Source: a virus | Length of the DNA: 64,000 nucleotides | Virus record (IMG/VR): IMGVR_UViG_3300023179_000032 | Location: 57,983 to 121,982 of that record | Reading direction: 5' to 3' (one strand) | Part shown: positions 7,800-19,253 of the stretch, piece after piece | Layout of the letters: every line of letters begins with the position of its first letter | How positions within the stretch are numbered: the stretch's first letter is position 1 | Notes under the pieces: model-generated | Database searches by the model: none | Seen by the model: only the letters and a program-made list of their open reading frames with translations | What the model was told of the DNA's origin: nothing | Position numbers and translations under genes: made by a program

Positions 7800-8621
7800 A
7801 TGTCAGTAAATTATCTTAATAATAAAGATTTATTAGAAGAAATACACAAGAGTAAAAATACATATTCGAGTTTTACACGCCCTGAATATAATCAATATGA
7901 CTTGATTCTAACCAGTTTAGAGCGTATTAATATACGAACAATAGCAGAAGCTAAAAGAAATCGCGCTAAAAGATTGGGAGATGAGGAATATCATCGGAGA
8001 AGACAGGCAGGTGAAAAAATCAAACAAAGTGAATGTGAAGTTGATTATAAAAAAATGGCCAAGACTGATCTAATATTTAGAATAATGACTTATGAACATA
8101 TCCCAGTGAATAAAACACGTAAGAAAAGTCAAAAAACTGAAGCAGATGGACACGATCGAGTAAATTTTCCACCTTTCCAACATTGGAAGTTTGATGAAAA
8201 TGACGAACTCATATGCGTAGGGAAAAGTCATTGGCGAGGTGGTATAAAAAGTGGCAAGTTCAGTAAGGATCATGGACAAATAACCAACACATTGGCCCGT
8301 ATGTATATCAAACTATGCGAACGTTATGCTACCCGTGGTAATGTGCGCGGCTATACCTATAACGATGAAATGCGAGCACAGGCCATACTACAACTCACAC
8401 AGGTTGGACTACAATTTAATGAAGCTAAATCGAATAATCCATTTGCTTATTTTACTGCTGCTGTTACTAATAGTTTTGTACGGATAATCAATATTGAAAA
8501 ACGTAATCAAAATATTAGGGATGATATACTAGAAATGAATGATATGGCCCCAAGTTATACTAGAACTAGCAATGCTGAACACGCTGCTAGCCTACGTAGA
8601 TTTGAAAGAGAAGAGGAATGA
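7800..8621 (+). CDS. gp55: Late-transcription sigma factor, gp55-like
   Basis: NYLNNKDLL, ITNTLARMYIKLCERYA, YTYNDEMRAQAILQL and FNEAKSNNPFAYFTAAVTNSFVRIINIEKRNQ motifs; upstream of gp47/gp46 as in T4-like phages. Confidence 0.85.
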   Translation: MSVNYLNNKDLLEEIHKSKNTYSSFTRPEYNQYDLILTSLERINIRTIAEAKRNRAKRLGDEEYHRRRQAGEKIKQSECEVDYKKMAKTDLIFRIMTYEHIPVNKTRKKSQKTEADGHDRVNFPPFQHWKFDENDELICVGKSHWRGGIKSGKFSKDHGQITNTLARMYIKLCERYATRGNVRGYTYNDEMRAQAILQLTQVGLQFNEAKSNNPFAYFTAAVTNSFVRIINIEKRNQNIRDDILEMNDMAPSYTRTSNAEHAASLRRFEREEE

Positions 8622-9628
8622 GTTTATTTAAAAAGGCAGCATTTTTTACAGACATACACTTTGGCTTAAAAAGCAATAGCCAAACACACAATCAAGACTG
8701 TGAAGATTTTGTAGATTGGTTTATTGCCACTGCTAAAAAGAATAGATGTGATACTGGATTCTTTTTAGGTGATTGGCATCATAATCGAAACAGTCTTAAT
8801 ATTGTTACTATGGATTATAGTCTTAGGGCTTTGGAAAAACTGGGCAAGGCATTTGACCAGTTCTTTTTCTTTCCTGGTAATCATGATCTTTATTATAAAG
8901 ATAAACGAGATATCCATAGTGTAGAGTTTGGCAAATATATACCAGGGATCACAATAGTGCATCAGCCTATGACCTTAGGCGAAGTTACTATGTGTCCTTG
9001 GCTTGTAGGTGAAGAGTGGAAAACTGTGGGCAAGAAAGATGCCCGTTATATATTTGGTCATTTTGAACTGCCCAGTTTTTATATGAATGCCATGGTACAG
9101 ATGCCTGATCACGGTGAAATACAACTTGATCAGTTTAAACGGTATGAACTTGGCCTAAGTGGACATTTTCATAAACGCCAAAATAAACAGAATATGCACT
9201 ATATTGGTAATGCTTTTCCGCATAACTACGCAGATGCTTGGGATGATGACAGAGGCATGATGATCTTAGAGTGGGGCAGTGAGCCAGAATATCACGCTTG
9301 GCCTGACCAACCTACATTCAGAACTGTCAAATTGACTCAACTTATAGATGAACAAGATGCTATAATAAAACCTAAACAATATCTTAGAGTATTATTAGAC
9401 GTGGATATCAGTTATGAAGAAAGCGGACACATTAAGGAAGAATTTTTTAACAAATATGAGATTAGGGAGTTAACTTTGATTCCAGAAAAACGTGAAGTTG
9501 AATTTGCTAGTGATTTGGAAATTAAACAATTTGAAAGTGTAGATCAAATTGTTATGAATCAATTGACCAGTGTGGAAAGTGATACCTACAATGTTAAACT
9601 ATTAATGGACATTTATAACAATTTATGA
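8618..9628 (+). CDS. gp47: Recombination endonuclease subunit, gp47 (Mre11/SbcD-like)
   Basis: Metallophosphoesterase motifs FTDIHFG, GDWHH, GNHD, GHFE, SGHFH. Confidence 0.92.
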   Translation: MSLFKKAAFFTDIHFGLKSNSQTHNQDCEDFVDWFIATAKKNRCDTGFFLGDWHHNRNSLNIVTMDYSLRALEKLGKAFDQFFFFPGNHDLYYKDKRDIHSVEFGKYIPGITIVHQPMTLGEVTMCPWLVGEEWKTVGKKDARYIFGHFELPSFYMNAMVQMPDHGEIQLDQFKRYELGLSGHFHKRQNKQNMHYIGNAFPHNYADAWDDDRGMMILEWGSEPEYHAWPDQPTFRTVKLTQLIDEQDAIIKPKQYLRVLLDVDISYEESGHIKEEFFNKYEIRELTLIPEKREVEFASDLEIKQFESVDQIVMNQLTSVESDTYNVKLLMDIYNNL

Positions 9629-11397
9629 TTAAGATACAGGATCTTAGTGTTAAGAATTTTATGAGCGTGGGTAATAATACCCAAGCCGTCGACTTCGGCC
9701 GAGAGCAATTAACTTTAGTATTAGGCGAAAATTTAGATCAAGGAGGTGATGATTCAGGAAGCCGTAATGGTACCGGGAAAACCACAATTGTCAATGCTCT
9801 AAGTTATGCGCTCTACGGCCAAGCATTAACCAACATCAAGAAAGATAACTTAGTCAATAAAACTAATGGCAAAGCCATGTTGGTCAAGTTAAACTTTGAA
9901 AAGAATGGTGTTGAATATCGTATTGAACGTGGACGTAGGCCTAATGTGTTTAAGTTTTTTGTCAATGGCTTAGAACAAGAAGTCATTGATGAAAGTCAAG
10001 GTGATGTAAGAGAAACACAGAAAGACTTAGATGAACTACTAGGTATGAGCCATGATATGTTTAAGCATATTGTGGCATTAAACACATACACAGAGCCATT
10101 TCTAAGTATGAGGGCTGCGGATCAACGTATGATCATTGAGCAATTATTAGGTATTACCCTGCTCAGTGATAAGAGTGAAAGTTTAAAAAATCAAATAAAA
10201 GAAACTAAGGATGCTATACAGCAAGAATCTGCTAATATTGAAGCAGTCAAACGCAGTAATGAACGTATTGAACAAAGTATAAACAGTCTACTTTCTAAAC
10301 AACGTGCTTGGCTCAGTCAACAAGAACAGGATTTAGAAAAGATTGCTAATAGTATTTTAGAATTACAGAGTATAGACATTGAACAAGAACTGGAACAACA
10401 TAATAAATTAAAAAGTTATCTTGAACTAAGTGCTCGTATTAATAGTTTGAACAAGGAAAAGGCCACATTAGAGACTGCTGTTAGTCAGGCTGAACGTAAT
10501 GTTAAGAATTATACTGTTGAATTAAAAAAATTAGCCAATAATAAATGTTCCAAGTGTGATCAAAACTTGCCAGGACATATGCACGATGAACTAAAAGCCG
10601 AGGCTGAAAACAATTTAGATGAAGCACAAACTTATCTTAACAATGTAGATTTTAAATTAACCAATGTGGTAGCAGAATTAGATGAGATTGGTGATATAAA
10701 TGGCAGACCTCAAACATTTTATGATACAATAGAAGAAGCATTAAAGCATCAAAACAATCTTGCTACACTGGAAAAAACTCTACTAAGTCGTAGTGAAGAA
10801 CGGGACCCATATCAAGAACAGATAGATGAACTGCGTAGTACAGCCATACAGGAAATTAGTTGGGACAATGTTAACCAACTTACTGAACTAAAAGAACATC
10901 AAGAATTTTTACTTAAATTATTGACCAGTAAGGATAGTTTTATTCGTAAAAAGATCATTGATCAGAACTTGGCCTACTTGAATAATAGGTTAAGTTATTA
11001 TTTGGATCGTATGGGACTACCCCATCAGGTTAGTTTTTTAAATGATCTTAATGTGGAAATCACACAGTTAGGACAGGATTTAGACTTTGATAACTTAAGC
11101 AGAGGTGAACGTAATAGATTAATCTTAGGATTAAGTTGGGCATTTAGAGATGTATGGGAAAGCCTATACCAGAATATTAATCTGTTGTTTATTGACGAAC
11201 TTATTGACAATGGCTTAGATGCCAGCGGTGTTGAAAGTGCTCTAGCAGTATTAAAGAAAATGGCCAGAGAACGCAATAAGAATATCTACTTGATCAGTCA
11301 TAAGGATGAACTAGTTGGACGAGTAAACAATGTATTAAAAGTTATTAAGGAAAATGGTTATACCAGTTATGCTAACGACTTGGAGATCATGGGGTGA
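9625..11397 (+). CDS. gp46: Recombination ATPase subunit, gp46 (Rad50/SbcC-like)
   Basis: Walker A GSRNGTGKTT, coiled coil with CSKC zinc hook, signature LSRGE, Walker B LLFIDE, H-loop ISH. Confidence 0.92.
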   Translation: MIKIQDLSVKNFMSVGNNTQAVDFGREQLTLVLGENLDQGGDDSGSRNGTGKTTIVNALSYALYGQALTNIKKDNLVNKTNGKAMLVKLNFEKNGVEYRIERGRRPNVFKFFVNGLEQEVIDESQGDVRETQKDLDELLGMSHDMFKHIVALNTYTEPFLSMRAADQRMIIEQLLGITLLSDKSESLKNQIKETKDAIQQESANIEAVKRSNERIEQSINSLLSKQRAWLSQQEQDLEKIANSILELQSIDIEQELEQHNKLKSYLELSARINSLNKEKATLETAVSQAERNVKNYTVELKKLANNKCSKCDQNLPGHMHDELKAEAENNLDEAQTYLNNVDFKLTNVVAELDEIGDINGRPQTFYDTIEEALKHQNNLATLEKTLLSRSEERDPYQEQIDELRSTAIQEISWDNVNQLTELKEHQEFLLKLLTSKDSFIRKKIIDQNLAYLNNRLSYYLDRMGLPHQVSFLNDLNVEITQLGQDLDFDNLSRGERNRLILGLSWAFRDVWESLYQNINLLFIDELIDNGLDASGVESALAVLKKMARERNKNIYLISHKDELVGRVNNVLKVIKENGYTSYANDLEIMG

Positions 11398-11654
11398 AAC
11401 CTCCACGTGATGAAGAACTCCATGATCAGTTAATGGATGCATTTAGGAGATATTACAAGGCAAATCAAGAATGGGTTGAGAAAGGCACACGTAGGGCAGG
11501 ATTAAAAACTAGAAAACTACTTAGTGAAATTAGGCATATTGCTATAGAACGTCGTGAAGTAATCATGCAATGGCGTTATGAAATAGATAGAGAAAAGGCA
11601 GAACGTAAGGCACTTCAAAAGGCAAAGAATAAAAAGGTCGATGACAATATATAA
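11394..11654 (+). CDS. Small basic protein, possibly histone H1-like (Hc1-type) DNA-binding protein
   Basis: GTG start overlaps the gp46 stop; K/R-rich; EKGTRRAGLKTRKLLSEI resembles the recalled EKGNKAAGTRARK pattern of bacterial Hc1-like proteins. Confidence 0.45.
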   Translation: MKPPRDEELHDQLMDAFRRYYKANQEWVEKGTRRAGLKTRKLLSEIRHIAIERREVIMQWRYEIDREKAERKALQKAKNKKVDDNI

Positions 11655-12095
11655 TTGATGTCATGGACTCATCAAGGCCAATTAGTTACAGAAATTCCAG
11701 AAGAGTATATAGGCTTCGTTTATCTTATTACGAATACACAGTCAGGCCGTATGTATATAGGCAAAAAGTTGGCACAATTTGCAAAAACAACTTACAAAAT
11801 AGTAAAACTAAAAAATGGTACTAAAAAACGTAAGCGAATCAGAGGCAAAGTAGCAAGCGATTGGCGAGATTATTATGGCAGCAATGATGAACTCAAGGCA
11901 GATGTACAGAGATTAGGCACTGAAAATTTCACAAGAGAAATATTATATTATTGTACCAGTAAGTCAGAATGTAGTTACGTTGAGGCAAGAGAACAATTTT
12001 CAAGGCGTGTATTAGAATCAGACGATTACTATAACGGGCACATTCAGGTCAGAGTTCACGGCAAATATATTAAAGGCAAAATATTACACGGTTAA
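11655..12095 (+). CDS. Stand-alone GIY-YIG family nuclease
   Basis: GFVYLITNTQSGRMYIGKK (GIY...YIG), YYGS, conserved Glu (VEAREQ) and YNGHI; catalytic domain only. Confidence 0.8.
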   Translation: MMSWTHQGQLVTEIPEEYIGFVYLITNTQSGRMYIGKKLAQFAKTTYKIVKLKNGTKKRKRIRGKVASDWRDYYGSNDELKADVQRLGTENFTREILYYCTSKSECSYVEAREQFSRRVLESDDYYNGHIQVRVHGKYIKGKILHG

Positions 12096-12445
12096 GGCTA
12101 GGCACTGGCCAATTTCAGGTGCCCCTATACCTGGACCACGAGTCGCAGGGATGGAAAACTCACCGCCGTAGTGAGTACTCAGCCACTACCCGCAAGGATG
12201 ACGATCACTTAAATGCCGTGATTTGGCTGTTTGAACAGGATTAAAAGGCTAAAAGACGCTGTAAAAACGCAGCACGTTAGTATATGGTGATAGCATACTA
12301 TATAGTAACCGCCGTTGTATGAAGACTGTGCTCGAGGTACCGGACAACCGCCTCTGTAACGCACTAATGCTATGGACTGAGCAACTCGCATAATGTTCCT
12401 TTCGCCCTCGGATGGGCGAAGAGTGACGTCACAATCTGCATAATA
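12096..12445 (+). ncRNA. Candidate large structured non-coding RNA (strand inferred)
   Basis: ~50% GC by hand count against AT-rich flanks; about 10 stems including GGCAC/GTGCC 12101-12123, CCTG-GAC/GTC-CAGG 12130-12149, CTCAC/GTGAG 12159-12175, CAGCCA/TGGCTG 12180-12229, a 13-of-14-bp stem 12276-12309, nested GTGC-GAGG-CGG 12328-12364 and TTCGCCC/GGGCGAA 12401-12420; no credible ORF. Confidence 0.6.
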
Positions 12446-12472
12446 TATAAAAACAAAAGAAGAAAGAAAAAG

Positions 12473-12520
12473 TTTTTAGGACGATAAGTCCTAAAAAAGA
12501 GTGAGCGTAGCTTCACTCTC
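12473..12520. other. Two hairpins after an A-rich tract (possible terminator or origin-like element)
   Basis: TTTTTAGGAC-GATAA-GTCCTAAAAA (10-bp perfect stem, 12473-12497) and AGAGTGA...TCACTCT (12499-12519); on the - strand the first hairpin is followed by a U-rich run. Confidence 0.45.
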
Positions 12521-12524
12521 ACCG

Positions 12525-12532
12525 TATAAATA
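12525..12532 (+). promoter_or_regulatory. T4-type late promoter TATAAATA
   Basis: Exact T4 late consensus, 4 nt before the ATG at 12537. Confidence 0.75.
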
Positions 12533-12536
12533 CCAT

Positions 12537-13460
12537 ATGAAAGTTAATGAATTATTATCCGAAACAGAGTTAGATGAATTTATTGGTACTCTTGGTGCTG
12601 CTTTAGGTCTTGGTGCTAAAGCAATAGGTGGATTGATGCGTGGAGCAAGAAATGTTCCTAAAAACATATCTAAAGTACCTGTACCTACAGTACCTACTGC
12701 TAAACAAGCAACTAAAATAGCAAAACAGCAATATAAAGATAGCTGGCTGAATAAATTGGGATTTTCTAAAAATACAACTGTTGGAAAATGGCGTATTGAC
12801 AGTATGAAAAAAGCGGTTCAAAAAAGAGGTATGAAAAATCAAGCAAAAGCAATACAGCACAATATGGAAGTAGCTACTTCTATACAGGACAAGATGGCTA
12901 ACTTGGGACTAAGTGTTGTAAGTACAGGCTTTTTCTTTTATGCTACTTATGATTATTTGATGAGTCGTTGGGCATTAGATCCTAATGATCCTAATTATGA
13001 TGCTCAATTGGCTAAGTTGAATGCTGAATTTCTAATGGGATTTCTTGTGCCTAAAGTAATAGGAAGTATAGGCAAAATTAGTTCTGGTCTAGTAGGTAGA
13101 TTAATGAAGATGACTGGGCTACCTAAAGCAGGCGAAATGGCTGCTAGATGGGGACGTCATGTATCACGTGTTGGTGAAGTAGCTGCTATGGCATGGCTTC
13201 GAACTGATGCTGGAAAAAAATGGTTTGCACAAACTTTTGCAGCAGCCATGGGGTTATTTACAGATGCAGGATATGCTTTAGAAGGTTTATTTAAACTTGT
13301 CAGTGATGTTGTTAAAGATCCTGAGGGCTTTGTAAAAGATTTATGGGATAAAATTAAATTGCCTAAGGTGCATGATGCTTATGCAGGAACATCAGCTGCT
13401 GGTAGTATAACAAAAATGGTTCCAGATATAGTTACATCAAAGGAAGGCCGCTTTTCTTAG
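12537..13460 (+). CDS. Hypothetical late protein with Gly/Ala-rich hydrophobic helices (possible internal/ejected virion protein)
   Basis: The track starts at GTG 12501, but the late promoter lies inside that extension, so ATG 12537 (MKVNELLSETELDE) is the likelier start. Confidence 0.7.
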   Translation: MKVNELLSETELDEFIGTLGAALGLGAKAIGGLMRGARNVPKNISKVPVPTVPTAKQATKIAKQQYKDSWLNKLGFSKNTTVGKWRIDSMKKAVQKRGMKNQAKAIQHNMEVATSIQDKMANLGLSVVSTGFFFYATYDYLMSRWALDPNDPNYDAQLAKLNAEFLMGFLVPKVIGSIGKISSGLVGRLMKMTGLPKAGEMAARWGRHVSRVGEVAAMAWLRTDAGKKWFAQTFAAAMGLFTDAGYALEGLFKLVSDVVKDPEGFVKDLWDKIKLPKVHDAYAGTSAAGSITKMVPDIVTSKEGRFS

Positions 13461-13665
13461 TAAGTTCTATATTTTCTTTAATGATATTATTCATTATTTG
13501 TCTATCTTCAAAAGTATAGATATGAAATAGATCCTGAGAACTTACACCTCCTCGCATATACCAACTTATACTAAAGATATCATCCTTAATCTGTTTGATC
13601 TGTAGTTCAAAGCTGTCAAGAAAATCTTTGATCTCAGAGTCAGGGATATAGATCAGTTTCGTTCG
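13432..13665 (-). CDS. Open -1-frame extension of the gp26-like gene (gp51-position chaperone segment)
   Basis: Not in the track. 77 codons: RTKLIYIPDSEIKDFLDSFELQIKQIKDDIFSISWYMRGGVSSQDLFHIYTFEDRQIMNNIIKENIELTKKSGLPLM*. First in-frame ATG is at 13557 (41-aa product). Confidence 0.6.
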   Translation of the reverse strand, partial: RTKLIYIPDSEIKDFLDSFELQIKQIKDDIFSISWYMRGGVSSQDLFHIYTFEDRQIMNNIIKENIELTKKSGLPLM

Positions 13666-13671
13666 AAAAAA
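13629..13671 (-). promoter_or_regulatory. Putative -1 ribosomal frameshift signal
   Basis: In-frame slippery heptamer U UUU UUC (13671-13665), 9-nt spacer, then stem UGAUCU (13655-13650)/AGAUCA (13634-13629). Confidence 0.55.
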
Positions 13672-14492
13672 CTTGATTGATCCAAAGTAACTACTACTTT
13701 ACTTTGATGTTCACATTCTGGACAGGTCACATCTTGTTGTGGAACATCCCATTGTGCTTTATTTTGTTCTAATTTATTTTTAATGTGTTTAAAATATTCT
13801 TTATCACTATTCTGAATCCATTCTTTGATAAAGGCTTTGTCAGTGACAATACCATCTGGAGTTTCAATAGCTTCAATACTTTGTTCAAATAAATTTAACT
13901 GTAAATTACTAATTCTTTGAAATACTTCGTTTTGACTTTTTATAGTACCGTCATCATCACCTTGACTTTCCATCCTATTAAGTTGACTCAGCATTTTTTG
14001 AAGTTTATAATTTTCAATATTAAACTCTGTAGTTTCCTCATAGCGTAGTGGCCTAATTACTACATTAAGATCATGGCAAGGAATCCTATTATCATAGGTT
14101 TGGCCGCTTAAGTATTCTATCACTCTGCTTAGATCAATTTCATAGTCATTAATACTTTGACAGTTTGGACAACGATGTGTTATGCTCATCATTGCCCCAA
14201 AGGTAGCAATTCGTATACTGGCCAACAAACAATCTACATCAATGCTGGGCATTTTCCAAGCATTTTTAATAGTAGGACAGCAACTTTCTATGGTTTTTAC
14301 CACTGCATCACCAGTAAAAAGTGCATCTGGAGTTTTCATAATGATTTCATCCATTCCAGTCATACCGTAGATTGGTATATTTACAGGTTTGCCTTCTAGA
14401 CTACCTTCTTCGTAAAATGCTCCTTTACTGGGCAAATCAATATGAATTTTAGGCTGTCTAAAATATTTTTGTAATGGATTTTTGTTGTTCAT
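13653..14492 (-). CDS. gp26: Baseplate hub assembly protein, gp26-like
   Basis: NPLQKYFRQPKIHIDLPSKGAFY, PIYGMTGMDEI, DVDCLLASIRIATFG and two CxxC motifs (CPNC, CPEC); adjacent to the tape-measure-like gene. Confidence 0.8.
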   Translation of the reverse strand: MNNKNPLQKYFRQPKIHIDLPSKGAFYEEGSLEGKPVNIPIYGMTGMDEIIMKTPDALFTGDAVVKTIESCCPTIKNAWKMPSIDVDCLLASIRIATFGAMMSITHRCPNCQSINDYEIDLSRVIEYLSGQTYDNRIPCHDLNVVIRPLRYEETTEFNIENYKLQKMLSQLNRMESQGDDDGTIKSQNEVFQRISNLQLNLFEQSIEAIETPDGIVTDKAFIKEWIQNSDKEYFKHIKNKLEQNKAQWDVPQQDVTCPECEHQSKVVVTLDQSSFFERN

Positions 14493-14552: not shown

Positions 14553-17500
14553 ATGGCAGATGAAAAAGGTATAGTAGGTAAAACTGTAGATCAAGTTAAG
14601 AAGTTGGGTACTGCTGCGGAAAAGGTAGTTACCCCACTTCAGAAGATGAATGAAGTATTCGAGAATTTAAGCACAACGGGGAATACTTTTGGCAATGACA
14701 TAATAAAGATGCAAATTGCTGCTGCGAATTCTCGTATGCCTTTGGAAGATTTTGCCAAATTATTACAAGAAAATAATACAACAATGGGAACTTTGGCCGG
14801 TAGCGTGGGCAAAGGTTCTCAGGTATTTGCAGATCTAGCCAAGTCATTTCATGCCAGCGGACTAGCAGAAAATCTTAGACAGATGGGATTTAGTTCACGT
14901 GAGCTGAATGAAGTATTGGCTCTACAGGTAGGATTCCAAAAAAGTACATATGAAAACAGTGTAGAAGGACAGAAGAAAGCCACTGCCGCTGCTGCATCCT
15001 TAGCCATGGAGATGGATGCATTAACACAAATCACTGGACAAAGTCGTAAAGATCAGGAGGAAAATTTAAAGAAAGTTCAGGCTGATATGAAGCTTGAATC
15101 TAAGTTTAGAATGATTGGCGCCATGTACGGTGCTGATAAGGAGAAAGAAGCTAGAGATAATTTTGCTGCCAACTATACTCAAATGGCAGCAAAAGGTATG
15201 GGGGATCTTTATAAGGAAGTATTTGCCACAGGTACTACCATGACTAAAGGCGCTCAAGCTCAACAGAGTATGTTTGGTAAAGCTGGTCTGGCCGCTGCTA
15301 AAAGTGCTGTAGAGCTTAGTAGAGGAAATAGTGAATTAGCTAAGGTTTATAATGAACGTGCTCAGGTAGAAGTAATGGCTCTACAAAAAAGCAGAGCATT
15401 TTTAGCAGCAGGTATTTGGGCTACTGGTGATATAGGTGAAGCTGTACGTGGTAACATCAAGGCCAATGATACAGCTTTCCATGGTATGCAGCAGACCATG
15501 AAAGAGCATAAAATTGCCACCAATGACATCACTGAGGCATTGAAAAAACAACGTGAAGAGATTAAGAAAGAACAAGATGCTCGCAGCGGCGTAACACAAA
15601 GTATTAGAACATTTGGCATTGTAATGGATGATGTAAGAGCAGCCATTGCCAACAGATTATTAACTAATATTAACAAAGAATTAAACAAGCCTGGTTTAGA
15701 CGCATCAGGTCAATTTTTACAAACTAAACCAGGCGAAGATCCCAGAAAAAGAGCCCAATTGTATGCAGATGCTCTAGAGAAGGAAGCAGCAGGTGACAAG
15801 GCTAATAAATTAACCCCTGCCAGTAGGCAAAAGTTAATTGAAGAAGTAATTGGACAATATGGTGGTGATTTAGCCACACAACTTTTAGGATTCAGTGCTA
15901 AAGCAGCAGTAAGTGCCTTTAAAGGTGACTTAAAAGAAACATTAAGAGAAGGGTTTAATCAACTAACTGTAGGAACAATTAATGTAGGTGAAATCAAACA
16001 AGGCAAGGAAGGTAGAGCTGGTGGTACATTAGGCGAAACAGGAAGAGTAGTTGAGCCTAAAGATGTTCATGCTCTGTTGCACAAAGGTGAAATGGTACTC
16101 ACACAGGAACAACAGAAAAATCTTATATCTAATGTAAGGACTGAAGCTATAGCTGATATAATGGCAAAAATTCAAAATCAAGCAACAGTATCACAACCAG
16201 GAAAGTTACCTAGTATAGATTTAAACAAATTTGCCAAGGATATTGCTACAACAACTAGTAAGGTTGAAGTACAAAATTGGCCTAAAGAATTTAAAGTTGC
16301 TGATGGTGCAGCAACAGCTGGAGCTCAAAAACCTGCTGAACAAAAACCTGCTGAAAAGAAAGAAGAAACTAAACCAACTGAAACAAAAGCAGAAAAGGCC
16401 AGTAAAGTAGCAGAAGAAGTATTGATCAAATCGGGTGATACTCTTAGCGGCCTAGCTAAGAAATATGGTACCAGTGTAGCAGAAATAATGAAGGCTAATC
16501 CTGCTATTAAGGATGCTAATAAAATTTTAGCCGGCGCAAAATTAACTATACCAGGACAAGAAAAGAAAGAAGAAACTAAAAAAGAAGAAAAGAAAGACGA
16601 GAAGAAAACAGAGCAGGCTACTATATCTGATGCCGATGCTAGAAAATCTTGGCGTGAAAGAGAAGCTAAAACATTAGAAAAACAAACTCCTACTCAGGCC
16701 AGTGTACGAGCTGTAGATAATGCTATAGATAAAAAGCCTAAGGAAGATACCAAATCAAACTATACAGAAACAAGTAAAACTACAGTAAAAGTTAATGGTA
16801 AAGAAGTTGACCCCAATAGTCAAGAAGGTAAAAATGCTGTAGCTTTCTTAAAAGAAAAAGAAGAAAAATTAAACAAGGCAATGAGTGAAGGTTTTGATCC
16901 GCAAAAAATTGCCACTGCCCTACAAAGTCAAGTTTCGGCATCTGTACAAAAAGATACTGGTGGCGGGGATAATGTAGTTCGTCGTAATGCTGAAGAAGCA
17001 GCGCAGGAAAATAATAAGTTTAAGATAAAAGTAGAACAGGATTATAACGATCATTGGGTTAAAACTAGAGACGAAGCTGCTCAAAAAATTGTTGATTTAG
17101 AGAAAAAAGCTGCTACCGAAACTCTTACTAAACGTGAACAAAATGAGTTGACTTTTCAAAAAAATCTAAAAGCACAAGCAGATGAGGAAATAGCTACAAG
17201 CACTGCTAATTTAGAAATATTTAAAAATCTCGGCAAGGAAATGGGTAAGGCAATTACGTCACCATTAACTGATGCTAAGGAAGAAATTAAATCTAATAGT
17301 GAAAAAATCAAAGAGGATATGAAGGAAGCACTGCCAGTTCAAGGTATGCGAGATAAGACTGAAGAAGCAGAGCAGGAGAAGAAACGAGAAGAACTCTATC
17401 AACGCCAAATGGAGAGACAGGCAAAAATAAACGATTTAGCCAAGGCCAAAGAAGCTGCTACTGAACGAGGAGATCAAGCAAGCGCAGCTATGGACACTAT

Positions 17501-19253
17501 GATGGCTAAAGGGCAGAGAGAAGGCAAGAGCAAAGAAGAAATTGAAGGCAGTGAAGCATTTAAAAAAGCTAATCAAGAAATGAAACAGGCTTATAGGGAA
17601 GCTGAAAATATCAGTAAAGATATGGGCAAGCTAATAGTAGCGCCATTAACTGATGCTAAGGAAGAAGTTAAGTCTAATAGTGAAAAAATCAAAGAGGGTA
17701 TGAAGGAAGCACTGCCAGTTCAAGGTATAAGAGACAAGACTGAAGAAATGAACAAATTGGCAGAGAGAAGAACAGAAATTGAAGAAAGACTCCTAGAGCG
17801 TCAAGGTGAAGTAGATGGACTAAAGGCCTTGGCTAATGAGAGAGCACTAACAGAAGAAGAACAGGCACAACTAAAATTAGCTGAAAATGGTGTGATAAGA
17901 GCTCAGAATAATCTTAAATCTAATCTAGAACAACAGGAAGAATTAGCAGCAGCATTAGGAATTGCCAAAAAAGATTCAGATAGTAAAATCCTTGAACAAA
18001 CAAAACAGGCCAATCAAGAAATGAGCAAGATAATAGTAGCGCCATTAACTGATGCTAAGGAAGAAGTTAAGTCTAATAGTGAAAAAATCAAAGAGGATAT
18101 GAAGGAAGCACTACCAGTTCAAGGTATGAGAGACAAGACTGAAGAAATGAACAAATTGGCAGAGAGAAGAACAGAAATTGAAGAAAGACTCCTAGAGCGT
18201 CAAGGTGAAGTAGACGGACTAAAAGCTCTAGCTAATGAAAGAGCACTGACAGAAGAAGAACAGGCACAGTTGAAGTTGGCGGAAAACGGTGTAATAAGAG
18301 CTCAGAATAATCTTAAATCTAATCTAGAACAACAGGAAGAATTAGCAGCAGCATTAGGAATAGCCAAAAAAGAAACAGATGAAAAGATACTTGAACAAAC
18401 AGAAGAAGCTAATAAGGCACAGGTTGAAAGCTATGGTGGATTAACTGATTCAGTAATTGCTGCTCGTGACAAGTTTATGGAGGAGTTGAATGAGGCTCCT
18501 CAAGGTGAAGGATCAATGGACAGTGCCTTTGCTAGGGATGAATATGGTGAAGGTGGTGATGCTATTGGCGGTGAAATGAACAGTGCCTTTGCTAAAGATG
18601 AATATAGTGCATTTAAAGATTTAACTAGTCAAGTACAGGGCTTGACTGATAGTCAAATGTTAGAGGCTAATGAAGAACCACAAGGTGAAGGATCAATGGA
18701 CAGTGCCTTTGCTGAAGATGAAGATGACTATGTAAGTCAAGCATTGAAGAATATTTCATCACAACTACCACAGACTATGGATTCAACAGCTGATGATGCT
18801 GCCTATGCTGCCGGCCCTGGTGATACTGGTACAGGTGATGCCAGTGTAGCTGAAGCAATGGCCAAAAAACCAGCTAAAGGACCAGCTAGTGAGGCTAATT
18901 TCGCTCCAATTAGCATGGGTGATTTTACATTAGGGCCTAATGGATTACCTACACCTAAGCCAAAGGCTGAAGCTAAGAATATACCAAACGAAGTTAAGAA
19001 GGATGAGAAAAAGGCGCAGGAAGATAAAAAAGCAAAAGATGCACAGAAGAAAGCAGATAAAGATGGAAAGAAACAGGATCAAAAAACTACTGAAACTACA
19101 CAGAAGAAAGAAAATAAAACTCTAGACGATGTTGTAAAGACGCTGGAAACATTAAATAGTAACATGAATAGACTAATAAACAAAGTAGAAGAAACTGGAA
19201 AAAACCAAGTCAATGCTACAAAGAGTATGAATGGAAATTTATTTAATAGGTAA
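14553..19253 (+). CDS. Tape-measure-like protein with an internal LysM domain and tandem duplications
   Basis: 1566 aa, mostly helical and Ala/Glu/Lys-rich; LysM IKSGDTLSGLAKKYGTSVAEIMKANPAIKDANKILAGAKLTIP near 16420-16555; lies between the gp26-like gene and the portal. Confidence 0.6.
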   Translation: MADEKGIVGKTVDQVKKLGTAAEKVVTPLQKMNEVFENLSTTGNTFGNDIIKMQIAAANSRMPLEDFAKLLQENNTTMGTLAGSVGKGSQVFADLAKSFHASGLAENLRQMGFSSRELNEVLALQVGFQKSTYENSVEGQKKATAAAASLAMEMDALTQITGQSRKDQEENLKKVQADMKLESKFRMIGAMYGADKEKEARDNFAANYTQMAAKGMGDLYKEVFATGTTMTKGAQAQQSMFGKAGLAAAKSAVELSRGNSELAKVYNERAQVEVMALQKSRAFLAAGIWATGDIGEAVRGNIKANDTAFHGMQQTMKEHKIATNDITEALKKQREEIKKEQDARSGVTQSIRTFGIVMDDVRAAIANRLLTNINKELNKPGLDASGQFLQTKPGEDPRKRAQLYADALEKEAAGDKANKLTPASRQKLIEEVIGQYGGDLATQLLGFSAKAAVSAFKGDLKETLREGFNQLTVGTINVGEIKQGKEGRAGGTLGETGRVVEPKDVHALLHKGEMVLTQEQQKNLISNVRTEAIADIMAKIQNQATVSQPGKLPSIDLNKFAKDIATTTSKVEVQNWPKEFKVADGAATAGAQKPAEQKPAEKKEETKPTETKAEKASKVAEEVLIKSGDTLSGLAKKYGTSVAEIMKANPAIKDANKILAGAKLTIPGQEKKEETKKEEKKDEKKTEQATISDADARKSWREREAKTLEKQTPTQASVRAVDNAIDKKPKEDTKSNYTETSKTTVKVNGKEVDPNSQEGKNAVAFLKEKEEKLNKAMSEGFDPQKIATALQSQVSASVQKDTGGGDNVVRRNAEEAAQENNKFKIKVEQDYNDHWVKTRDEAAQKIVDLEKKAATETLTKREQNELTFQKNLKAQADEEIATSTANLEIFKNLGKEMGKAITSPLTDAKEEIKSNSEKIKEDMKEALPVQGMRDKTEEAEQEKKREELYQRQMERQAKINDLAKAKEAATERGDQASAAMDTMMAKGQREGKSKEEIEGSEAFKKANQEMKQAYREAENISKDMGKLIVAPLTDAKEEVKSNSEKIKEGMKEALPVQGIRDKTEEMNKLAERRTEIEERLLERQGEVDGLKALANERALTEEEQAQLKLAENGVIRAQNNLKSNLEQQEELAAALGIAKKDSDSKILEQTKQANQEMSKIIVAPLTDAKEEVKSNSEKIKEDMKEALPVQGMRDKTEEMNKLAERRTEIEERLLERQGEVDGLKALANERALTEEEQAQLKLAENGVIRAQNNLKSNLEQQEELAAALGIAKKETDEKILEQTEEANKAQVESYGGLTDSVIAARDKFMEELNEAPQGEGSMDSAFARDEYGEGGDAIGGEMNSAFAKDEYSAFKDLTSQVQGLTDSQMLEANEEPQGEGSMDSAFAEDEDDYVSQALKNISSQLPQTMDSTADDAAYAAGPGDTGTGDASVAEAMAKKPAKGPASEANFAPISMGDFTLGPNGLPTPKPKAEAKNIPNEVKKDEKKAQEDKKAKDAQKKADKDGKKQDQKTTETTQKKENKTLDDVVKTLETLNSNMNRLINKVEETGKNQVNATKSMNGNLFNR
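17634..18410 (+). repeat. In-frame tandem duplication, 399-bp (133-aa) period
   Basis: ATAGTAGCGCCATTAACTGATGC at 17634 and 18033; GCATTAGGAA at 17952 and 18351; partial third copy from ~17262. Confidence 0.9.

What the first reader, a model, noticed from the sequence alone, without database searches (positions are those of the whole stretch)
12096..12445. Unassigned ~350-nt highly structured RNA starting 1 nt after a stand-alone GIY-YIG nuclease gene
Seen: ~50% GC (169/340 by hand count) in an AT-rich genome; about 10 helices covering most of the interval, including multibranch junctions (CAGCCA/TGGCTG enclosing a CC-GCAA-GG hairpin and ATCAC/GTGAT; GTGC/GAGG/CGG nested stems), G-U pairs favouring the + strand, a perfect GTGACGTCAC palindrome (12423-12432) and a repeated GCATAAT. 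I do not recognise tRNA, tmRNA, RNase P or SRP hallmarks. Inference: a new large phage ncRNA or ribozyme co-transcribed with the sigma-gp47-gp46-nuclease operon, possibly partnering the catalytic-domain-only nuclease, by analogy with nuclease-adjacent RNAs such as HEARO/omega RNA.
Basis: partly seen in the sequence, partly recalled or inferred. Interest (0 to 1): 0.8.

Follow-up and report, generated by a model that had tools for sequence, protein, structure and literature searches.

The report
Full-length Polynucleobacter-1 twin-box phage RNA
The gene-free stretch behind a small nuclease gene of this uncultured giant T4-like phage encodes a real, knotted non-coding RNA of about 430 bases; its first third is the catalogued but unexplained Polynucleobacter-1 motif, its tail shows one 7-letter word twice, it does not need the nuclease, and its job is still unknown.

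Summary
Window 12096-12445 (+) is 49% GC in a 38% GC window. It is conserved as one unit in over 100 viral contigs and folds into 12 helices, three of them pseudoknotted: 96% of cells are paired and 47 of 62 pairs show double changes. It is not unassigned. Bases 12097-12232 match Rfam RF01718 (Polynucleobacter-1, 102.8 bits), an orphan motif of 2010 already noted downstream of this nuclease family. The RNA also runs on to about 12522, some 427 nt. The repeated GCATAAT is the striking part. ACUC+word (12384-12394) and AUCU+word (12434-12444) carry the same 7-mer in 53 of 53 aligned relatives, across at least 15 switches of the word. No partner for the word was found. The nuclease-partner reading is not supported. 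The RNA stands without any GIY-YIG gene in integrase-bearing islands of 17 of 151 genomes of one bacterial genus (inferred Polynucleobacter) and in a few viral contigs, and the nuclease family is common in phages that lack the RNA. Function is unknown. My best guess is a trans-acting RNA that shows two identical words to one outside reader. This scan has already reported the same family on other DNA several times.

The parts
11655..12095 (+). SegE-like GIY-YIG domain-only gene (146 aa; ATG at 11658). It is the usual upstream neighbour and is not shown to be a partner.
   Evidence: PF19835 E 5.8e-34 over residues 4-130. phrog_447 and homing-endonuclease PHROGs. GFVY and YIG motifs are present. 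It is the homologue of PSSM2_218.
12096..12232 (+). 5' domain, which is the Rfam Polynucleobacter-1 motif. Helices: PK0 12096-99/12107-10; P1 12102-06/12118-22; P2 12130-36/12142-49; P3 12158-63/12171-76; P4 12180-85/12224-29; P4a 12190-91/12196-97; P5 12203-08/12218-23.
   Evidence: RF01718 at 102.8 bits (cut-off 37), model positions 1-141. Helices covary.
12233..12373 (+). Pseudoknotted core that the Rfam model does not cover. Helices: P6 12258-61/12270-73; P7 12276-89/12296-12309; P7 loop 12290-95 pairs with 12368-73; P8 12314-18/12344-48 crosses P9 12328-31/12361-64 and P10 12335-38/12350-53. The block GGUACCGG..ACCGCC (12336-12354) is nearly invariant.
   Evidence: Conserved in relatives by blastn and nhmmer. 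Invariant columns. Double changes in all 6 pairs of the loop pseudoknot, 3 of 5 pairs of P8 and 4 of 4 pairs of P9.
12384..12394 (+). Twin box copy 1: ACUC followed by the word GCAUAAU (12388-12394).
   Evidence: Columns 436, 440 and 442 are identical to columns 497, 501 and 503 in 53 of 53 sequences, MI about 1.
12401..12420 (+). Conserved GC hairpin between the boxes: UUCGCCC / GGGCGAA with a 6-nt loop, preceded by a U-rich run.
   Evidence: Present in all aligned relatives, with changes that keep the stem. Seen in the minimum-free-energy fold.
12434..12444 (+). Twin box copy 2: AUCU followed by the word GCAUAAU (12438-12444), 50 nt after copy 1.
12445..12522 (+). Tail: an A-rich spacer, a hairpin at 12473-12497 and a terminal hairpin at 12498-12519. 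This is the probable 3' end of the RNA (inferred).
   Evidence: The same tail layout (spacer, a hairpin with a GAGCG..GCGAA motif, then an 8-bp terminal hairpin) follows box 2 in most relatives and in the bacterial copies. The scanner also flags these hairpins.
12525..12539 (+). T4-type late-promoter-like TATAAATA (12525-32) and the ATG (12537) of the next gene, which mark the end of the RNA unit.
   Evidence: Read directly from the sequence. Similar TAATAAATA or TATAAATA words follow the tail in relatives. That this is the T4 late promoter consensus is my own knowledge.

Best explanation
Shown: this is the full-length form, about 427 nt (12096 to about 12522, + strand), of the orphan RNA family Polynucleobacter-1 (RF01718). 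It is a multi-domain RNA with three pseudoknot helices. It is present once per genome in a clade of uncultured giant (about 345 kb) T4-like phages, normally directly behind the gp55-gp47-gp46-(small ORF)-GIY-YIG gene row, and also in integrase-bearing islands of genomes of one bacterial genus (inferred to be Polynucleobacter). Inferred: in the phage it is made as the tail of that early or middle transcript, or cut out of it. Two terminal hairpins close it before the late promoter of the next gene. It acts in trans as a folded scaffold that displays two copies of one 7-nt word (here GCAUAAU) on either side of a GC hairpin. One reader encoded outside the locus then reads both copies. The word would be a specificity determinant, as in a decoy, a sponge or an immunity-like element. 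The nuclease gene is a fixed neighbour in this phage clade, not a required partner.
For: Family membership. The whole unit is conserved in 75 of 80 nuclease-anchored loci and 120 RNA-anchored loci. Structure: 96.0% of cells are paired, against 32-41% when partners are slid; 47 of 62 pairs show double changes; covariation is 0.546 against 0.05-0.10; 0 of 500 shuffles reach the observed values. The twin words are identical in 53 of 53 sequences. There are at least 15 word changes on a tree built without the box columns, and every site change is mirrored (N1 7/7, N2 2/2, R 5/5, D 4/4), while the neighbouring ACUC and AUCU stay different. This argues for selection rather than gene conversion. Independence from the nuclease: the bacterial copies sit between a divergent DUF6641 gene and a 198-aa tyrosine recombinase gene, in 17 of 151 genomes of one genus, and keep twin boxes with other words such as AGCGAAA and AACAAAA. 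L376 has a divergent neighbour gene and an AT-rich upstream region with a TATAAT word. The two complete phage genomes have no DUF6641, recombinase or reverse transcriptase gene, so phage and island share no protein neighbour of the RNA.
Against: No reader was found. There is no complementary site in the RNA body or tail, none within 1.5 kb either side, and none at orthologous sites of six phage genomes, two of them complete. Folding energies do not mark the boxes as especially unpaired (0.43 and 0.51 against a mean of 0.41). Four of 18 bacterial copies have boxes that differ by 1-2 nt, so identity is not absolute. In phages the RNA follows the GIY-YIG gene in 96 of 100 informative RNA-anchored loci, so a functional tie cannot be ruled out by synteny alone.
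Confidence: 0.6

Rival explanations
1. Nuclease-RNA system: the RNA binds the domain-only GIY-YIG protein and guides or regulates it, as omega RNA does for IscB.
For: In phages the RNA starts 1-30 nt after the nuclease stop codon in about 89% of informative loci, and the pair stays together while flanking genes vary. The protein has no DNA-binding domain of its own.
Against: The RNA occurs without the gene in bacterial islands and in L376 and L318. ORFs of 259-356 aa are inserted between the two in about 7% of loci. The protein family is in 715 phage records, and the nearest ones lack the RNA. The only variable segments are two identical 7-mers, too short and too duplicated to serve as a guide.
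Confidence: 0.06
2. Cis-acting RNA: a self-cleaving or processing ribozyme, and/or a 3'-end stabiliser, that frees and protects the upstream mRNA. The twin boxes would be two identical processing sites that release the hairpin of about 50 nt.
For: The RNA abuts the stop codon of whatever ORF lies upstream, including inserted ORFs. The core is compact, multiply pseudoknotted and has invariant junctions, as ribozymes do. Two identical sites cut by one enzyme would explain the identity.
Against: No Rfam ribozyme family matches even at E up to 10. The bacterial and L376 copies lie in ORF-free gaps next to a divergently oriented gene, so there is no upstream same-strand ORF to process. Nothing explains why a processing word should change at least 15 times.
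Confidence: 0.12
3. Identity as such is the requirement. The boxes are take-off and landing sites for a polymerase or a ribosome: template jumping as in DRT2 or telomerase-like repeat synthesis, or T4 gene-60-type bypassing. Alternatively they are the crossover cores of a site-specific recombination site.
For: The word is arbitrary but identical. The spacing is 47-59 nt, and 50 nt here, as in the T4 gene 60 gap (the T4 fact is from my own knowledge). A small tyrosine recombinase gene lies downstream in the bacterial islands.
Against: The complete phage genomes G001 and G304 and the island genome G101 have no reverse transcriptase gene, and the phage genomes have no tyrosine recombinase gene. 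The spacing modulo 3 is 21/20/12, and no ORF is conserved into or across the boxes. RNA-level covariation surrounds the boxes.
Confidence: 0.04
4. DNA-level element: a replication origin, iterons or a protein operator, not an RNA.
For: Direct repeats about 50 bp apart, a GC-rich island and a position next to DNA-metabolism genes.
Against: Compensatory changes keep Watson-Crick and G-U pairs on the + strand only, in 47 of 62 pairs. There is no genome-wide enrichment of the word.
Confidence: 0.03

Closest known systems
Polynucleobacter-1 RNA motif (Rfam RF01718; Weinberg et al. 2010, Genome Biol 11:R31, PMC2864571)
   Same: The 5' 136 nt match the whole 141-position model at 102.8 bits. As that paper's supplement says, it lies downstream of a gene of the GOS11034 / PSSM2_218 family. 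Their raw alignment already shows a 'tail' with a pseudoknot.
   Different: The Rfam model stops after the 5' domain. The supplement says the motif was not detected in any sequenced purified phage. The twin boxes, the tail hairpins, the phage-clade synteny and the island context are not mentioned in the parts of that paper I read. Function is unknown in both.
HEARO / omega RNA of IscB
   Same: A structured RNA next to a small nuclease gene on mobile DNA.
   Different: No Rfam match. The nuclease is GIY-YIG, not HNH/RuvC. There is no variable guide. The RNA and the nuclease each occur without the other.
ROOL and GOLLD large phage-associated ncRNAs
   Same: Ornate, large, carried by phages or mobile elements, function unknown (my own knowledge).
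   Different: No sequence or structure match in Rfam. This RNA is smaller (about 430 nt). Twin words are not a described feature of those RNAs.
Phage P4 CI RNA (seqA/seqC) and P1/P7 C4 RNA immunity systems (my own knowledge)
   Same: Two identical short boxes in one transcript, with a word that differs between related elements and sets specificity.
   Different: In those systems the complementary box lies in the same transcript. Here no complementary site exists in the RNA, its tail or 1.5 kb either side.

Membership tests
Rfam RF01718 Polynucleobacter-1 | Covariance-model score above the curated gathering score over the full model | tested here: met
   102.8 bits against 37, model positions 1-141, E 3.8e-21
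Rfam RF01718 Polynucleobacter-1 | Helices of the model supported by covariation in relatives | tested here: met
   P1, P3, P4 and P5 are 94-100% paired, with double changes in 3-5 pairs each
Rfam RF01718 Polynucleobacter-1 | Position downstream of a GOS11034 / PSSM2_218-like gene (Weinberg 2010 supplement) | tested here: met
   The upstream ORF hits PSSM2_218 of phage P-SSM2 by tblastn
RNA-guided nuclease system (omega RNA / HEARO-like) | Obligate co-occurrence of the RNA and the nuclease gene | tested here: not met
   The RNA occurs without GIY-YIG in 17 of 151 bacterial genomes and in L376 and L318. The nuclease occurs without the RNA in phages Melnitz and P-SSM2
RNA-guided nuclease system (omega RNA / HEARO-like) | A hypervariable guide segment next to a constant scaffold | tested here: not met
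   The only fast-changing segments are two identical 7-mers inside the RNA
Known self-cleaving ribozyme classes and group I/II introns | Match to an Rfam ribozyme or intron model; for an intron, a split host gene | tested here: not met
   No such hit at E up to 10 in 11300-12700. The flanking ORFs are complete. Catalysis itself cannot be tested here
tRNA / tmRNA | Detected by ARAGORN or Rfam | tested here: not met
   ARAGORN finds 0 genes in the window. The only tmRNA hit is a 7.4-bit chance match
GIY-YIG nuclease, SegE-like (the neighbour gene) | Pfam domain match and GIY / YIG motifs | tested here: met
   PF19835 E 5.8e-34. GFVY and MYIG are present in the sequence. Nuclease activity was not tested
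Template-jumping retroelement ncRNA (DRT2-like) | An associated reverse transcriptase gene | tested here: not met
   No PF00078 match in G000, G001, G002, G304 or G101

The most novel reading that the evidence does not exclude
The twin 7-nt words are a programmable specificity determinant read by base pairing with a nucleic acid encoded elsewhere, in the host or in a rival mobile element. This would make the family a new class of bivalent guide or decoy RNA shared by giant phages and chromosomal islands, perhaps used in phage-island or phage-phage conflict.
Probability: 0.12. Interest if true: 0.8.

Novelty: new member of a known kind. Interest (0 to 1): 0.5.

Why it matters
Polynucleobacter-1 has been an orphan motif since 2010. 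This analysis shows four things. The catalogued 141 nt are only the first third of an RNA of about 430 nt with several pseudoknot helices. The RNA is a standard part of a large clade of about 345-kb freshwater T4-like phages. The same RNA sits in integrase-bearing islands of genomes of one bacterial genus, which I infer to be Polynucleobacter, a genus that can be cultured. That makes the RNA open to experiment. The twin words switched together at least 15 times, which gives a sharp and testable handle: find what reads them. The Rfam model also misses divergent members, such as G304, that keep the core and the boxes.

Tried and rejected
- Partner for the boxes in cis. The 8-mer complement within 1.5 kb either side gave 79 sites against about 76 in controls. 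The longest complementary run in the RNA tail or body was no better than with permuted words. The same search in 11 aligned bacterial loci found only the boxes themselves.
- Partner elsewhere in the phage genome. The word is not enriched in its own genome. The orthologous-site test over G000-G004 and G304 returned only the boxes as genome-specific words. A candidate site in gp46 did not track the word, nor did a candidate 'TGGATGAT' site in a downstream gene.
- Small ORF or ribosome hopping. The spacing is 47-59 nt, modulo 3 it is 21/20/12, and the peptides are not conserved.
- Template jumping. No reverse transcriptase gene.
- Site-specific recombination. No tyrosine recombinase gene in the phage genomes.
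- DUF6641 as a shared reader. It is absent from the phage genomes and unrelated to the GIY-YIG protein.
- Ideas rejected by inspecting the list of words. CsrA GGA sites, a -10 promoter mimic, an anticodon-loop mimic, a dif-like XerCD site and a box C/D K-turn each fit only some words.
- Other family and database searches. PADLOC on the island genes gave nothing decisive. The nuclease has no sequence relative among solved structures. The inserted ORFs have no Pfam family, and one of them tested against PHROGs has no match.
- Calls that gave nothing useful. The genome contigs pattern scan was swamped by chance hits in GC-rich genomes, and only two tiny contigs binned into metagenome-assembled genomes were real. 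Relatives cannot be drawn for a virus record.

Full report
**What is in the window.** The window is part of a 122-kb fragment of an uncultured virus, with completeness estimated at 34%. Upstream of the finding, on the + strand, lie a row of genes:
- a gp55-like late sigma factor gene at 7800-8621 (phrog_12791, E 2e-75);
- a gp47-like phosphoesterase gene at 8618-9628;
- a gp46-like SMC/AAA gene at 9625-11397;
- an 86-aa ORF;
- a 146-aa SegE-type GIY-YIG gene at 11655-12095 (PF19835, E 5.8e-34).

No ORF of 60 aa or more lies on the + strand between 12096 and about 12500. GC is 49.1% in 12096-12445, against 37.7% for the window.

Rfam places 12097-12232 (+) in RF01718, the Polynucleobacter-1 RNA. 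The score is 102.8 bits against a cut-off of 37, over the whole model. Nothing else in the 64 kb reaches a cut-off, and ARAGORN finds no tRNA or tmRNA. The only paper in the library that names this family is Weinberg et al. 2010. Its supplement says most examples lie downstream of genes of family GOS11034, with possible homology to PSSM2_218 of cyanophage P-SSM2, and that none had been detected in a sequenced purified phage. The nuclease gene here is a homologue of PSSM2_218, so this is the same association. Their raw Stockholm file also holds a 'tail' subfamily with extra helices and a 7-bp pseudoknot. The Rfam model keeps only the first 141 positions.

**The whole 350 nt, and more, is one conserved unit.**
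- More than 570 viral contigs encode a close relative of the nuclease, at 66-96% identity.
- In 75 of the 80 loci fetched, nhmmer finds the element behind that gene, mostly full length.
- An alignment of 53 full-length copies (A1) gives RNAalifold 33 of 49 pairs with compensatory changes.
- I derived 12 helices from column statistics, including three pseudoknot helices. On this structure 96.0% of cells are paired, against 32-41% when partners are slid by 1-3 columns. Double changes occur in 47 of 62 pairs. The covariation score is 0.546 against 0.05-0.10, and none of 500 shuffles reaches the observed values.
- Invariant G-U pairs fix the strand as +.
- Beyond 12445, relatives share a tail: usually a small UUCG hairpin, an AU-rich spacer, a hairpin with a GAGCG..GCGAA motif and an 8-bp terminal hairpin, followed by a late-promoter-like TATAAATA.
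- In the window these are the hairpins at 12473-97 and 12498-12519 and the TATAAATA at 12525-32. The RNA is therefore about 427 nt. Its ends are inferred, not measured.

**The twin boxes.**
- Copy 1 is ACUC+GCAUAAU (12384-94). Copy 2 is AUCU+GCAUAAU (12434-44).
- In all 53 aligned sequences the two 7-mers are identical to each other, while the word differs between sequences (AGAUAAU, GGAUGAU, GGAUAAU, GGAUGAA, GCAUAAU, AGAUGAG and others).
- On a tree built without the box columns the word changes at least 15 times, and every site change is mirrored in both copies.
- The adjacent ACUC and AUCU stay different throughout. Short-tract gene conversion is therefore an unlikely cause, and selection for identity is the simpler reading (inference).
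- A strict regular expression found identical twin boxes in 96 of 113 further loci anchored on the RNA core.

**What reads the boxes?** I tested every idea I could.
- Cis partner: none. See, and for the bacterial copies.
- Partner or extra sense copy elsewhere in the phage genome: the word is not enriched genome-wide. A test for orthologous sites that carry each genome's own word or its complement, across six phage genomes including the complete G001 (344 kb) and G304 (347 kb, terminal repeats), returned only the boxes themselves. Two local candidates failed when checked in more loci.
- Coding or ribosome hopping: the spacing (47-59 nt) shows no frame preference, and the peptides are not conserved.
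- Template jumping: no reverse transcriptase gene.
- Recombination: no tyrosine recombinase gene in the phage genomes.
- Several protein-site or mimic ideas fit only some of the words.

**Is the nuclease a partner?** In phages the adjacency is very regular. Of 100 RNA-anchored loci with enough upstream sequence, 89 have the GIY-YIG gene adjacent, 7 have it with an ORF of 0.5-1.1 kb inserted between, and 4 lack it. All of these belong to one syntenic clade, gp47-gp46-(variable)-GIY-RNA-(variable)-baseplate gene, so adjacency may simply be inherited. The evidence against dependence is as follows.
- L376 carries the RNA next to a divergent aminotransferase gene and an AT-rich upstream region with a TATAAT word. 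L318 has another ORF in place of the nuclease gene.
- The nuclease family occurs in 715 isolate records, all below 60% identity. The nearest, Methylophilales phage Melnitz and P-SSM2, have no such RNA.
- The RNA occurs in bacterial chromosomes without any GIY-YIG gene.

**The bacterial copies.** I started from a Burkholderiaceae genome and found the RNA above the cut-off in 17 of 151 sampled genomes of one genus, with one or two copies each. One hit, G193 at 2130772-2130906, coincides with Weinberg's NC_009379.1 coordinates. I therefore infer that the genus is Polynucleobacter.
- In these genomes the RNA lies in an ORF-free gap of about 1 kb, between a divergently oriented DUF6641 gene (145 aa) and a 198-aa tyrosine recombinase gene.
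- In the one island examined further (G101), a second integrase, a C5 methylase and an AAA ATPase lie nearby. The DUF6641 neighbour is found in 18 of 19 loci and the recombinase in 14.
- The bacterial copies keep the core, the tail hairpins and the ACUC/AUCU twin boxes, but with other words (AGCGAAA, AACAAAA, AUCAAAA, AGAGAAA, GGAGAAA).
- In 4 of 18 copies the two words differ by 1-2 nt.
- DUF6641 is absent from the phage genomes and unrelated to the nuclease.

Phage and island thus share the RNA but no neighbouring protein. This points to an RNA that works on its own or with a factor encoded elsewhere.

**Verdict.** Its identity as a full-length member of RF01718 is secure. The mechanism I favour is a trans-acting scaffold that shows two identical specificity words to one outside reader. 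That is inference, and I would give it about 0.3. The processing-ribozyme rival gets about 0.1, and the nuclease-partner, identity-as-such and DNA-element rivals get about 0.05 or less each. Earlier notes of this scan describe the same 'twin-box' family on other genomes and reach the same main conclusions. I had derived the twin boxes independently.

Noticed in passing
L238:9184-11196 (G101:C1 about 1722183-1724195): In genomes inferred to be Polynucleobacter the RNA sits in a conserved module: a divergent DUF6641 gene (145 aa), then the RNA, then a 198-aa tyrosine recombinase gene. In the G101 copy a second integrase, a C5 cytosine methylase and an AAA ATPase lie nearby. The module is present in 17 of 151 sampled genomes, sometimes twice.
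   Followed up: partly
L376:1500-2075 (minus strand): A viral contig carries the RNA, with identical twin boxes GGAUAAU, and no GIY-YIG, gp46 or gp47 gene within 4.5 kb. It lies next to a divergent aminotransferase gene and near DUF454, Rv2179c-like exoribonuclease and metallophosphoesterase genes.
   Followed up: partly
L011:3429-4454, L012:3306-4322, L025:3372-4274, L038:3451-4230, L078:3432-4250, L022:3365-4435: In about 7% of loci an ORF of 259-356 aa with no Pfam family is inserted between the nuclease gene and the RNA. The RNA then abuts the stop codon of the inserted ORF. One of these ORFs (L011) was also tested against PHROGs, with no match.
   Followed up: partly
L050:3430-3900 (G304, 346,856 bp, terminal repeats, 100% complete): A divergent member keeps the GGUACCGG..ACCGCC core and identical twin boxes (AGAUAAU), yet RF01718 does not detect its 5' domain. 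The Rfam model therefore under-detects the family. L076 carries yet another word (ACAUGAA).
   Followed up: partly
L062:3430-3665 (also L064 and L065): Behind the same nuclease gene these contigs have a different GC-rich non-coding stretch of about 240 nt, with no Rfam match and no twin boxes. It may be a very divergent or replaced RNA.
   Followed up: no
window 35430-55808 (+): A single open reading frame of 6792 codons.
   Followed up: no
window 14553-19253 (+): A 1566-aa ORF with a LysM domain next to a T4 baseplate-family gene (13653-14492, minus strand). This is the variable structural region that follows the RNA in most relatives.
   Followed up: no
L245 (G272:C80:7050-9200): One contig in a bacterial genome assembly of the same genus carries a copy of the RNA with the same word as this window (GCAUAAU), unlike the island copies. 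It may be a phage contig in that assembly and so a hint to the host.
   Followed up: no
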